From assembly GCF_009914755.1 (NCBI RefSeq), contig NC_060944.1: 64,000 nucleotides of DNA. One strand, written 5' to 3'. Under the pieces are notes generated by a model that made no database searches, had not been told where the DNA came from, and was given only the letters and a program-made list of their open reading frames with translations. The DNA is from the human T2T-CHM13v2.0 reference genome, Homo sapiens. Below are positions 3,130 to 42,864 of this stretch, in pieces. The position numbers were made by a program, and so were the translations under genes. Within the stretch, counting starts at the first letter, position 1, and every line of letters starts with the position of its first letter.

Positions 3130-4445
3130 GGCTGTCGTAGGAATGCATAATAACATGCTTATTTGAATTGAAAAATGGAGTCAGAGTATTTCTGACAGAA
3201 ATTAGGTCTGACTTGGCTCATTAATTTGACCGTGAACACTGGCTTTGTCAATTAGGATATATGGCAGGCATTTTTCATAAATTGAATGAGCTTAATCTGC
3301 AGCTCTAAGATTTTGAATAAAAACGTTATGTAAATTACATCATAAAAGTATTTTACCACAAAAAATGCATTGGTAAAAGTGTATTGAAATTAAGAATATT
3401 TTTTATTCCTCCAAACCCTTCTGAATTATGAGGTTAAATACAGTTTCTTTAAGTGAAAGAGAAACAGCTATAATTAATAGTCATTTGTAAGTCTGGAAAT
3501 GATTGCCCAGCAATTGAGAAAGTGGATGAATCTGATGACTCGGCAACAATTTTCTTTTTTACCCCCCTTTACAGATTAGGAGATTCTTACTTTTTTGTTT
3601 AAAAAACTGAAGGAAAACCAGTAGAATTTTTCAATAGTCATTAAAATAATTTTAAGAGCCATTTTATTTTAGGAAGGCATTCAGAGAATTGAATGACACT
3701 GCTATGACAAAATTCCTTTCATTCCCATCTACTTATTTATGTAAATAAAGTTTTTTAGTGGTTACATATATAAAAATTAAAAATGAAATAGAATTGATGA
3801 TGAAACTCTCTCATTCTAGTAGCAGTAACATTCATTCATGTGAACATAACCTAAATGGAAAAAACTAGCTTCATTCATCTCATTGAGAGAAATGTTTCCA
3901 ATAGCATCAATTTTTATGTTTAATAATTACTTATTTAATGTGTAACGTATTTATACTCTTTTGATTAATTATATATACTAATAATTGTAATAATAACAAT
4001 ATATAGGTAAATTCTAGAACTTGAGGATTTTTATGATCACAGAAAATATCAAACAATTAAAATTTCATTTTATAAACTTTTTTTGGCAATGAAATATATT
4101 AGGGCTAACAATACAAATATTTGAGCATAAAATACATACTTATGAGGACATAATTTATGGTAGATATGAAATGGAAATATAAATTCAAGGAGGAAATATA
4201 AACATTATACCATTTCTAACTGTTAAGGAGGACTTTGTGTACTTTTAAAAGTGAACAATTAAGGATAATAAATCACCATGGTAGCTAGATTCCATTGGAT
4301 ACATTTAAAAGAATGATGGGGCTATTATATTTTGAAATCTCAATGCAACATTTACAATATGCTAGAAATTACATCCTTTTTATTTTATTTATTCTATTAA
4401 AATTTATAATAAAAAATGTAGTTGTCCACTTAAAAATATGCAACT
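3130..4445 (+). mobile_element. hAT/Charlie DNA transposon relic (Charlie2-like), degenerate transposase C-terminus
   Basis: Decayed coding motifs WLCQLGYMA.IF.KLNELNLQL (~3240-3305) and PFPSTYLC-like dimerisation-domain motif (~3715-3745), with stops/frameshifts; AT-rich 3' arm. Confidence 0.75.
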
Positions 4446-4599
4446 GGGTCCATGTTCTCTTCAAATCCAACCAGGTCAGATTGCCAAATCCAGATTCTCA
4501 TTGCCTTGGAAATCTGTTGTCTGCAGCCATTTCTGGTGCCCAAACCAGAACTGATCCGGGTTTGGGTGCATGCAAGAGATCCACATTAGGTAGTGTCAC

Positions 4600-5030
4600 C
4601 AGCAAGGGACTTGAAGCAGGGGATTTGGTGCTCCCAAAATTGTTTGAAAGGTCAAGAGAAAATACTCTAGACTGAGCATCCAGTTGTTTCTGCAGAGCCA
4701 CTTTATCCTGTTGCAGCAACTGATAGATCAGAAAACTCCTAACACTGTCACTTATTGAATGAGCATCTAACCTGACATGACCAGGAAAGCTATACTACTG
4801 CTCTAAAATTATGCCACTTCTACCACAATCCCCACCAGCAAAAGAGACTCCCCACACCCTTCCTTTTCTTTCCATGTCTCTGGGTTGCACAAATTCACCT
4901 AATTGGTGGAGCCTAAACATAGCTGGAACTCTAACTCTAAGGTGGTGCAGAAATTATTGTTTCTAGCTTTTCAGCATTTATGTAATGGGAGGGGTTGTAA
5001 TGGAGGCAAGTGAACCACCATACTATCTTC
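4600..5030 (-). mobile_element. Old MaLR LTR (MLT1M/N/O-like)
   Basis: aattggtggagcctaa...gaactctaactctaagg...gtttctagcttttcagc resembles old MLT1 ends. Confidence 0.4.
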
Positions 5031-41651: not shown

Positions 41652-41988
41652 TGCTGTGATCTAAATGTTGAAATCCTAACCCCCAAGGTGATAGTATTAG
41701 GAGATGGGGCCTTTGGGAGATACTTAGGTCATGAGGAGCCCTCATGATTGGGATAAGTGCTCTTATAAAAGAGACCCCAGAGAGCCGGCTATCCCCTGCC
41801 ACATGTGAGGACACAGCAAGAAGGTACCATCCATGGGGAAGGAGGAGACTTCTTTGTCAGACACCGAATCTGCCAGTGCCTTGATCTTGGACTTTGCAGG
41901 CTTCAGAACTGAAAGAAATAAATTTCTGTTGTTTACAAGCTACCCAGTTGATGGTATTTCATTATCGCAGCCCGAAGGGACTAAAGCA
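41652..41988 (+). mobile_element. MLT1A/MLT1A0 solo LTR
   Basis: TG...CA; gacaccgaatctgccagtgccttgatcttggactt; TSD atgcc at 41647-41651 and 41989-41993. Confidence 0.9.
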
Positions 41989-42187
41989 ATGCCTTTATTG
42001 TTTAAATGTCAGGAATGGCATTCACTGTGATTATAGTAGAATGCTGTTATAATAGTCAGTATAAGTACATTGATGGTCCTAGGCAGTGGTACTCTGCTCC
42101 TGGTTTACAATGAGTTTCCTCTCAGTAATGATGACTGAGTTGTAATTGATTATGCTCAGGATTTATTGAGATGACCATATATTTTCT

Positions 42188-42671
42188 TTTTTTAAGGAAA
42201 ATTTCTATTATTTTAATTATTTTTATGTACAGAAAACTCAACAGCGTACATTTAACCCAGTTTAGTCGCAAGTTCTTTAGCCTTCGCCTTTTTTAGCTTG
42301 GTGATGCAAGCCACAGACTTGGGACCCAGGACATTACCTCCCCAGTGACAGCAGATCTCATCGTATCTGTCGCTGTAATTGGTCCTGATAGTTTCCACCA
42401 GCTTAGCCAAAGCTCCTTTGTCTTCCAAGTTAACCTGTGCGAAGGCAGCAGTGGTGCCTCTCTTCTTGTGGACTAGAAGTCCCAGTCTTGACTTCCCCTT
42501 GATAAAGCAGTAAGGGCCCCCCATTTTTATGCCACAGGGCAGGCAGGAAGACAACCAGCTAGAAGAAAGCACTAGCTGAAGAGCATATTTTGACCAAAAG
42601 CAGTAAATTTCAAAGCTAGCTGGGTAGCAACTGCTCTGGGTTAAAAAGTTCACGTATCTGCCCTTCAAGGC
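42188..42671 (-). pseudogene. RPL7A: Semi-processed RPL7A (eL8) retrocopy: snoRNA remnant + retained intron end + spliced 3' exons + 3' UTR + poly(A)
   Basis: ORF 42252-42668 ends ...[57 protein letters not shown] (RPL7A C-terminus); frameshift near 42526; RPL7A-type 3' UTR; 19-bp TSD agatgac(c/t)atatattttct at 42169-42187 and 42672-42690. Confidence 0.95.
42631..42671 (-). pseudogene. SNORD36A: 3' half of a box C/D snoRNA (U36a-like), non-functional remnant
   Basis: Minus strand ccttgaagggcagatacgtgaactttttaacccagagca matches my recollection of the SNORD36A 3' half; guide complementary to 18S GTTAAAAAGCTC with 1 mismatch; box D CTGA mutated to CAGA. Confidence 0.8.
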
Positions 42672-42864
42672 AGATGACTATATATTTTCTAATGTTTCCT
42701 ATGGGTTTGATGTGTGATATTTAGATTTCTCCATAGCAAGCAATTCTCCCATTCTTGGGTTAGATGCTGTTAGGGGAAGGGTCACTCTGGCAGAGGCAGG
42801 TCTGCACACCTGGGTTGTTGCTTTTGCACACACACACCCGCCCCATTTTACACTGCACACCGCA

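What the first reader, a model, noticed from the sequence alone, without database searches (positions are those of the whole stretch)
42169..42690. Retro-fossil of a snoRNA-led, partly spliced RPL7A transcript (SNORD36A 3' half + intron end + spliced exons + polyA)
Seen, - strand, between 19-bp TSDs at an L1-endonuclease-like TT/AGAAAA site: (i) about 41 nt (42671-42631) with an element complementary to 18S rRNA GTTAAAAAGCTC followed by a box-D-like CAGA; (ii) about 72 nt ending in a pyrimidine tract and AG (gctttcttctag, AG at 42560-42559); (iii) uninterrupted RPL7A sequence from CTGGTTGTC (LVVFLP) to the stop, 3' UTR and a short poly(A). Established, from memory: RPL7A introns host U24 and U36a/b/c, the LVVFLP codons open an exon, further introns lie downstream, and intronic C/D snoRNAs sit about 70-80 nt upstream of the 3' splice site. 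Box D to AG here is about 76 nt. Inference: the template RNA kept the snoRNA-bearing intron but had later introns removed, including one I recall hosting U36c. It was either a 5'-snoRNA-capped polyadenylated RNA or an intron-retaining mRNA. Reverse transcription ended inside the snoRNA, possibly at the bound snoRNP. Retroposed snoRNA-host chimeras are a known class. What may be new is an RPL7A/SNORD36A snoRNA-ended isoform and a retrocopy family with clustered 5' ends.
Basis: partly seen in the sequence, partly recalled or inferred. Interest (0 to 1): 0.82.

Follow-up and report, generated by a model that had tools for sequence, protein, structure and literature searches.

The report
Retrocopy of snoRNA-led RPL7A transcript
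This is an old, dead retrocopy of an RPL7A RNA that began inside the intronic snoRNA SNORD36A, a kind of element described in 2006, so it is a tidy new example and not a new phenomenon.

Summary
On the minus strand, between 19-bp target-site duplications (42690-42672 and 42187-42169), lie five parts in order. They are the last 41 nt of the SNORD36 copy in RPL7A intron 5, the whole downstream intron, exons 6-8 with introns 6 and 7 precisely removed, the normal 3' end, and a short A run. Identity to the chr9 parent is 421 of 475 aligned bases.

This is the anatomy of a 5'-truncated "Type-3 snoRNA retroposon" (Weber 2006, PMC1687206). That paper notes that such ribosomal-protein copies were annotated as processed pseudogenes with their intron part overlooked. 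RefSeq's RPL7AP12 (42194-42565) does exactly that.

New here: the human genome holds four such RPL7A intron-5 copies (chr20, chr13, chr1, chr7). None extends upstream of snoRNA nucleotide 33, whereas 24 of 28 ordinary RPL7A retrocopies reach exon 1 or 2. The two copies with intact duplications are independent insertions of different age, yet they start within 2 nt of each other, just 5' of box C'. Seven other C/D-snoRNA introns tested gave no such copies.

The template most likely already lacked its upstream part. Whether the shared start was an RNA end or a reverse-transcriptase stop is open. Verdict: new member of a known kind, inert, modest interest.

The parts
42672..42690 (-). 5' target-site duplication, AGAAAATATATAGTCATCT, preceded by TT (an L1-endonuclease-like TT/AGAAAA site)
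   Evidence: The pattern has 2 matches in the window and none in 100 shuffles.
42671..42671 (-). One extra G between the duplication and the insert. It is either untemplated or parent A3928 mutated.
   Evidence: Weber 2006 reports a few untemplated nucleotides at snoRT 5' ends.
42630..42670 (-). The last 41 nt of the SNORD36 copy of RPL7A intron 5 (snoRNA nucleotides 33-73). It holds the box C' region, the 18S-Am668 guide with 1 mismatch, box D mutated to CAGA, and the 3' stem.
   Evidence: There is no Rfam hit in the window.
42559..42629 (-). The whole of RPL7A intron 5 downstream of the snoRNA, ending in a pyrimidine tract and AG (42560-42559)
   Evidence: parent 3970-4037.
42427..42558 (-). 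RPL7A exon 6, with a 1-nt insertion that shifts the frame
42357..42426 (-). RPL7A exon 7, joined precisely to exon 6. Intron 6 with its SNORD36 copy is absent.
42192..42356 (-). RPL7A exon 8: the end of the coding sequence, stop TAA (42254-42252) and the 3' UTR up to the normal cleavage site. Intron 7 is absent.
42188..42191 (-). Short remnant of the poly(A) tail. It runs into the A that opens the 3' duplication.
42169..42187 (-). 3' target-site duplication, AGAAAATATATGGTCATCT

Best explanation
The element is an inert, 5'-truncated Type-3 snoRNA retroposon derived from RPL7A.

Inferred origin: in the germline of an early primate or an earlier ancestor, an RPL7A transcript lost everything upstream of the intron-5 snoRNA. 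The likely route is cleavage or decapping, followed by 5'-to-3' exonuclease trimming that stops at snoRNA-bound proteins.

Shown: the downstream part of that RNA was spliced at introns 6 and 7 and polyadenylated at the normal site. L1 endonuclease and reverse transcriptase then copied this poly(A) RNA into a TT/AGAAAA site on chr20. The copy ended at snoRNA nucleotide 33, in the linker between boxes D' and C', and gained a 19-bp target-site duplication.

Inferred: the template already lacked its upstream part.

Open: the exact 5' end may have been an RNA end, or it may have been the point where reverse transcription or integration stopped.

The copy has since decayed. It is 11% diverged, has a frameshift and a mutated box D, and lacks boxes C and D'. 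It has no present function.
For: Structure:
- Collinear alignment to parent 3929-4037 (snoRNA half plus intron tail), then exons 6, 7 and 8 with exact junctions.
- SNORD36 models sit at parent 3897-3969 and 4287-4354.
- A 19-bp duplication with 1 mismatch, and none of 100 shuffles matching.
- The normal 3' end plus an A run.

Template lacking its upstream part:
- The 174-nt query of intron-5 5' part plus snoRNA 5' half hits only the parent.
- The 140 nt upstream of each of the four copies show no likeness to it beyond shuffles.
- 24 of 28 ordinary RPL7A retrocopies (L003-L030) reach exon 1 or 2. With 4 of 28 truncated, two such copies by chance give about 0.02 and four give about 0.0004 (my arithmetic).

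Independence and recurrence:
- The chr13 copy has its own 9-bp duplication, its own flanks and its own poly(A).
- It is about half as diverged (K2P 0.058 against 0.109).
- It starts at parent 3931 against 3929 for the window copy.

Class precedent: Weber 2006 defines Type-3 snoRTs with this anatomy, mentions truncated versions, and proposes the cleavage-plus-trimming origin.
Against: - No copy carries the mature snoRNA 5' end, which is the hallmark of a snoRNP-capped template. In the published U70/RPL10 case, 18 of 30 copies have the entire snoRNA. Here it is 0 of 4.
- Only two copies have intact ends. The chr1 copy has no duplication of 8 bp or more, a CT repeat at its junction and an internal deletion. 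The chr7 copy abuts a broken Alu and has lost its 3' end.
- Three other snoRNA introns of the same gene, and four in RPL13A, RPS11 and RPS8, gave no such copies. A general snoRNP-capping route does not explain why intron 5 alone yields them.
- No RNA data could be consulted.
- The folds of the region are no more stable than shuffles, so nothing in the RNA alone explains a stop at nucleotide 33.
Confidence: 0.72

Rival explanations
1. Plain intron retention. A full-length, capped RPL7A mRNA that kept only intron 5 was the template. L1 reverse transcription or integration broke off at random, and by chance it broke inside or just after the snoRNA in every copy.
For: 5' truncation of L1-mediated inserts is common. 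4 of 28 ordinary RPL7A retrocopies are truncated (L008, L018, L026, L028). No copy shows the mature snoRNA 5' end. Only two copies have verifiable ends.
Against: 0 of 4 copies reach upstream, although 24 of 28 ordinary copies are near full length. Two independent insertions end within 2 nt of each other. That is about 5 in 276 if ends fell evenly over the intron (my arithmetic).
Confidence: 0.2
2. An internal start. A cryptic promoter in intron 5 gave capped transcripts starting at about snoRNA nucleotide 33, and these were spliced, polyadenylated and retroposed at full length.
For: Two independent copies share the start. The window copy has one extra G at its 5' end. By recalled knowledge, such a G is often read as a copied cap.
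Against: The chr13 copy has no extra G. By eye, no TATA-like or other promoter motif lies upstream in the parent. No transcript data were available. A start inside a snoRNA is not a known feature of this gene in anything I read.
Confidence: 0.05
3. A DNA-level partial duplication of the RPL7A gene, or a template-switch chimera between mature SNORD36A and spliced RPL7A mRNA.
For: None beyond the presence of snoRNA and exon sequence side by side.
Against: Introns 6 and 7 are missing exactly. A poly(A) remnant and target-site duplications are present. The 68-nt intron stretch between snoRNA and exon 6 is collinear with the gene, which a chimera of mature RNAs would lack. The four loci share nothing but the copy and Alus.
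Confidence: 0.01

Closest known systems
Type-3 snoRNA retroposons (snoRTs) of Weber 2006, PLoS Genet 2:e205 (PMC1687206). The model case is U70 (SNORA70) in RPL10.
   Same: snoRNA sequence at the 5' end, the entire downstream intron, the processed downstream exons, poly(A), a target-site duplication and an L1-type insertion site. Truncated snoRNA versions are mentioned. Ribosomal-protein cases were annotated as processed pseudogenes with the intron part overlooked. RPL7AP12 is annotated in just that way.
   Different: The published main text deals with H/ACA and scaRNA cases; I saw no C/D Type-3 example and no RPL7A or U36. The family here is small: 4 copies among at least 87 RPL7A candidates. 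For RPL10 it is 30 of 42. No copy here has the whole snoRNA, against 18 of 30 for U70. SNORA70 gives 41 matches in this genome against 4 for SNORD36.
SPA and cytoplasmic SPA (cSPA) RNAs: capped by a snoRNA at the 5' end and polyadenylated at the 3' end. Known to me from a review (PMC10894041, passages read).
   Same: The inferred template is an RNA with snoRNA sequence at its 5' end, spliced downstream exons and a poly(A) tail. Such an RNA arises when a 5'-to-3' exonuclease stops at snoRNA-bound proteins.
   Different: SPAs start at the mature snoRNA 5' end. These copies start at nucleotides 33-35. No RNA was observed here; only its DNA fossil was.
Ordinary RPL7A processed pseudogenes (L003-L030)
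   Same: The same exons 6-8, 3' end, poly(A) and L1-type insertion.
   Different: Those copies are fully spliced, and 24 of 28 reach exon 1 or 2. This one keeps 109 nt of intron 5 and has nothing upstream of it.
Type-1 snoRTs (the snoRNA alone plus an A tail)
   Same: snoRNA sequence mobilised by L1. One SNORD24 example from the same host gene lies on chr20 at 47.50 Mb.
   Different: Type-1 copies start at the mature 5' end and carry no intron tail or exons.

Membership tests
Type-3 snoRT (Weber 2006) | The insert begins with the snoRNA sequence (the mature 5' end, or a truncated version) and holds nothing of the host gene upstream of it | tested here: met
   The insert starts at snoRNA nucleotide 33 of 73. 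The upstream flank has no likeness to the parent (22 of 500 shuffles reach the score). It is met as the truncated form.
Type-3 snoRT (Weber 2006) | The entire intron sequence downstream of the snoRNA is present | tested here: met
   Parent 3970-4037 aligns end to end, up to the AG.
Type-3 snoRT (Weber 2006) | Fully processed downstream exons and a poly(A) tail at the gene's own site | tested here: met
   The exon 6/7 and 7/8 junctions are exact, the 3' UTR runs to the normal end, and an A run follows.
Type-3 snoRT (Weber 2006) | A target-site duplication and an L1-endonuclease-like insertion site | tested here: met
   A 19-bp duplication with 1 mismatch, none of 100 shuffles matching. The site reads TT/AGAAAA.
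Copy of a SPA/cSPA-type RNA (snoRNP-capped, polyadenylated) | The 5' end coincides with the mature snoRNA 5' end | tested here: not met
   0 of 4 copies reach parent 3897. The starts are at 3929, 3931, about 3967 and about 3982.
Copy of a SPA/cSPA-type RNA (snoRNP-capped, polyadenylated) | Such an RNA exists in cells and is bound by C/D core proteins | not testable with these tools
   No RNA or CLIP data were on hand.
Functional SNORD36 gene | Boxes C and D, a terminal stem, and a score above the Rfam cut-off | tested here: not met
   No SNORD36 match in the window even at E up to 10. Boxes C and D' are absent and box D reads CAGA.
Ordinary processed pseudogene | No intron sequence | tested here: not met
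   109 nt of intron 5, including the snoRNA half, are retained.

The most novel reading that the evidence does not exclude
The shared start, 1-3 nt upstream of box C' in two independent insertions of clearly different age, may mark a real and long-lived RNA species. This would be an RPL7A 3' fragment whose 5' end is shielded by a half snoRNP assembled on boxes C' and D of SNORD36A. If so, the C'/D half of a C/D snoRNA could by itself cap and stabilise a spliced, polyadenylated RNA well enough for it to reach the L1 machinery. RPL7A intron 5 would be peculiarly prone to this: 4 copies against 0 in seven other C/D-snoRNA introns tested.
Probability: 0.15. Interest if true: 0.55.

Novelty: new member of a known kind. 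Interest (0 to 1): 0.3.

Why it matters
As a single locus it matters little. It is a dead fossil in an intergenic stretch, and its class has been in print since 2006.

Its use is threefold.
- It corrects an annotation. RPL7AP12 is 106 nt longer at its 5' end than annotated and contains half a snoRNA.
- It extends Type-3 snoRNA retroposons to a C/D snoRNA of RPL7A. I found no such case in the papers I could search.
- The small family records that, over tens of millions of years, the germline repeatedly held an RPL7A RNA that lacked everything upstream of the middle of SNORD36A but was otherwise spliced and polyadenylated.

If the shared end is an RNA end, it points to partial snoRNPs protecting mRNA fragments. 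That can be tested with existing long-read and 5'-end RNA data.

Tried and rejected
- Rfam scan of the window. There was no snoRNA match, only six weak chance hits below their cut-offs. The half snoRNA is too short and too mutated for the model.
- Hidden snoRNA or intron sequence upstream of the four copies. Nothing was found beyond shuffles. By eye the chr1 flank seemed to hold scraps of the snoRNA, but its best local score was reached by 29 of 500 shuffles. The Rfam model stretched over the chr13 flank (38 bits), but that flank matches the snoRNA 5' half no better than shuffles (629 of 1000 reach it).
- An RNA structure that could stop a polymerase or a nuclease. The snoRNA, the retained part and the chr13 copy all fold no better than shuffles (z = 0.14 to 1.64).
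- Generalising the box-C' start to other C/D hosts. No intron-tail copies turned up at all, so the idea could not be tested. A 51-nt chr2 hit to the SNORD38B tail has no exons and no A tail and was set aside as chance. Extra SNORD38 and SNORD42 copies match the snoRNA only, or not even that in BLAST.
- Comparing 5' ends of the published U70 family.
- Weber's supplementary figures and Table 3 and the scan's earlier findings were closed.
The duplication was checked with the DNA search instead.

Full report
**What is in the window**

Read on the minus strand, the stretch 42690-42169 is bounded by two copies of AGAAAATATAT[A/G]GTCATCT. These are the only two matches in the 64-kb window, and none of 100 shuffles gave a match. 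The upstream copy follows TT, which gives an L1-endonuclease-like TT/AGAAAA site.

Between the two copies lie one extra G (42671) and then 479 bases that match the RPL7A gene on chromosome 9. I found the parent by searching the window's own genome and fetched it as L036.

BLAST and a global alignment give this layout:

| Window (minus strand) | Parent L036 | Part |
|---|---|---|
| 42670-42630 | 3929-3969 | snoRNA 3' half |
| 42629-42559 | 3970-4037 | intron 5 tail |
| 42558-42427 | 4038-4168 | exon 6 |
| 42426-42357 | 4443-4512 | exon 7 |
| 42356-42192 | 4703-4867 | exon 8 |

A 4-6-nt A run follows exon 8. Overall, 421 of 475 aligned bases are identical.

Rfam finds four snoRNAs in the parent at its curated cut-offs:
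- SNORD24 at 2837-2911, in intron 2.
- SNORD36 at 3536-3609, in intron 4.
- SNORD36 at 3897-3969, in intron 5.
- SNORD36 at 4287-4354, in intron 6.

The copy therefore begins at nucleotide 33 of the 73-nt intron-5 SNORD36, in the linker between box D' (CTGA, parent 3919-3922) and the box C' region. It keeps the whole downstream intron. It lacks introns 6 and 7 exactly, and intron 6 is the one carrying the third SNORD36.

The retained snoRNA half has the 18S guide with one mismatch, and box D is mutated to CAGA. Rfam finds no snoRNA in the window. Exon 6 has a 1-nt insertion that shifts the frame.

Calling the intron-5 snoRNA SNORD36A rests on my recall of the gene order. The guide fits SNORD36A or B, both of which direct 18S-Am668 (PMC6316387, passage read).

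The 132-nt query of the intron part plus 19 nt of exon 6 gave 5 candidates, all scored: the window itself, the parent, and copies on chr13, chr1 and chr7. Using the less diverged chr13 copy as query gave the same five places.

Against the parent, the sister copies start at 3931 (chr13), about 3967-3975 (chr1) and about 3982-3984 (chr7).

- The chr13 copy has its own 9-bp duplication (AAGAGCTTT), its own TT/AAGA site and a long A-rich tail.
- The chr1 copy has no duplication of 8 bp or more, a CT repeat at the junction and an internal deletion.
- The chr7 copy abuts the 5' part of an Alu that breaks off mid-element, and it has lost its 3' end at parent 4732.

Only the chr20 and chr13 copies therefore have trustworthy ends.

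The four loci share nothing but the copy itself and unrelated Alus. They are four insertions and not duplications of one.

Their divergence from the parent's exons differs: K2P is 0.109 (chr20), 0.058 (chr13), 0.091 (chr1) and 0.096 (chr7). With recalled mammalian neutral rates of about 1.2-2.2e-9 per site per year, this puts the window copy at very roughly 50-90 million years and the chr13 copy at about half that. This dating is inference.

All four copies share five states that differ from today's parent intron. This fits changes in the parent after the youngest insertion.

**Does anything extend upstream?**

The 174-nt query made of the 5' part of intron 5 plus the snoRNA 5' half hit only the parent. 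The sequence upstream of each copy shows no likeness to that region beyond shuffles. The observed scores were reached by 22, 6, 29 and 93 of 500 shuffles for chr20, chr13, chr1 and chr7. The chr13 score came from an unrelated purine 11-mer.

For comparison, 24 of 28 ordinary RPL7A retrocopies (L003-L030, the best hits to the 3' 484 nt) reach exon 1 or 2. The four truncated ones start at parent 3085, 3400, about 3735 and about 3756 and are spliced.

Suppose intron-5-bearing templates had been otherwise full length and were truncated as often as the rest of the family (4 of 28). Two truncated copies would then be expected with probability about 0.02, and four with about 0.0004 (my arithmetic). 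Two independent ends within 2 nt of each other add a further factor of roughly 5 in 276, if ends fell evenly over the intron.

This favours a template that already lacked its upstream part. The sample is small.

**Known class**

Weber 2006 (PMC1687206; I read the abstract, the Type-3 section, the first part of the Discussion and passages found by term search) defines Type-3 snoRNA retroposons. They consist of:
- the entire downstream intron;
- the processed 3' exons;
- a poly(A) tail;
- a target-site duplication at an L1-type site.

Weber explains them by endonucleolytic cleavage of the host pre-mRNA and exonucleolytic trimming up to the snoRNA, while the 3' part is spliced and polyadenylated. 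The paper states that several such copies from ribosomal-protein genes had been annotated as processed pseudogenes with their intron parts overlooked.

RefSeq's RPL7AP12 (42194-42565) is such a case. It misses the 106 nt from 42566 to 42671.

The element meets every structural criterion of the class, in its truncated form (see the membership table).

The related RNA classes, SPA and cytoplasmic SPA RNAs, are known to me here from a review (PMC10894041, passages read).

**What is not in the papers I could search**

Weber's main text treats H/ACA and scaRNA cases. It contains no mention of RPL7A, and its only match to "U36" is the rRNA position U3616.

- Searches for snoRNA, retroposon and snoRT gave no RPL7A or SNORD36 retrocopy report among the listed papers, judged by title and abstract start.
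- The search for RPL7A + SNORD36 + retro gave 4 papers, none on this subject by title.
- The search for Type-3 snoRT and related phrases gave 9 papers.
- The search for partially processed pseudogenes is.
- The rhesus snoRNA paper describes one more H/ACA Type-3-like case, SNORA24b from SNHG8 (passages).
- A 2025 paper on snoRNA-retaining transcripts does not mention RPL7A, SNORD36 or SNORD24 in its main text.

Weber's Table 3 and supplementary figures could not be opened and may hold C/D cases.

**How special is intron 5?**

Using the same search, I tested seven other C/D-snoRNA introns.
- RPL7A intron 6, intron 4 and intron 7 (this one has no snoRNA) hit only the parent.
- RPL7A intron 2 hit the parent plus a Type-1 SNORD24 retroposon.
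- SNORD35A plus its intron tail in RPL13A and SNORD35B plus its tail in RPS11 hit only the parents.
- The SNORD38A tail in RPS8 hit only the parent.
- The SNORD38B tail hit the parent plus a 51-nt chr2 match with no exons or A tail, set aside as chance.

So 0 of 7 other C/D-snoRNA introns gave intron-tail copies, against 4 for RPL7A intron 5. I have no explanation for this.

The search method does find 84-91% identical copies of about 100 nt, so the blanks are not simply a matter of sensitivity. Older or shorter copies could still be missed.

The H/ACA family SNORA70 gave 41 matches genome-wide against 4 for SNORD36. This is in line with the published abundance of U70 copies.

**Mechanism and what stays open**

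The chain from poly(A) RNA to L1-type insertion is shown by the anatomy. The loss of the upstream part before reverse transcription is inferred from the family.

What set the end at nucleotides 33-35 is open. Three possibilities remain:
- It was an RNA 5' end. For example, an exonuclease may have halted by proteins on boxes C' and D after the box C side was lost, or the exposed D'-C' linker may have been cut.
- It was a protein-dependent stop of the L1 enzyme.
- It is coincidence in a sample of two.

RNA folding gives no sign of an unusually stable structure. The single extra G at the window copy's 5' end fits the untemplated nucleotides Weber reports. It could also be a copied cap, which keeps a small place for an internal transcription start. 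The chr13 copy has no such G.

**Verdict**

The finding is real and was correctly read. It is a new, C/D-type member of a class known since 2006, and it is functionally dead. The modest interest lies in the small family, its restriction to one of four snoRNA introns of the gene, and the recurrent start next to box C'.

Noticed in passing
L046 about 1500-1830 (G000 chr20:47.50 Mb; outside the window): A Type-1 retroposon of SNORD24, the snoRNA of RPL7A intron 2. It starts at the snoRNA 5' end and ends 4 nt past its 3' end with an A tail of about 20 nt. It is flanked by the duplication TTCAAAGAAG and split by an unrelated insertion of about 230 nt.
   Followed up: partly
L035 1354-1500 (G000 chr7:33.09 Mb): The chr7 RPL7A intron-tail copy is joined at parent position about 3982 to the first 145 nt or so of an Alu. 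That Alu starts at its own 5' end and breaks off mid-element. The copy also lacks its 3' end beyond parent 4732. It is either a later deletion or a template-switch chimera; this was not resolved.
   Followed up: partly
L036 3970-4020 against the four copies: All four retrocopies agree with each other and differ from today's RPL7A intron 5 at five positions: two substitutions near the snoRNA end, a 1-nt and a 2-nt length difference, and two further substitutions. The parent intron seems to have changed after the youngest insertion.
   Followed up: no
window 42566-42671: The RefSeq pseudogene RPL7AP12 (42194-42565) ends 7 nt into the intron part. It leaves out 106 nt that belong to the same insertion.
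   Followed up: yes
L058, L059, L060, L061 (SNORD38) and L066, L068 (SNORD42): Dispersed extra copies of SNORD38 (chr8, chr3, chr13; weak on chr19) and SNORD42 (chr4, chr22). In BLAST they match their RPS8 or RPL23A parents over the snoRNA only, or not at all, so they are Type-1-like and not Type-3.
   Followed up: partly
window 41898-41973, minus strand: A weak match to the plant family snoR116 (19.8 bits against a cut-off of 47, E = 1.4). I take it as chance.
   Followed up: no
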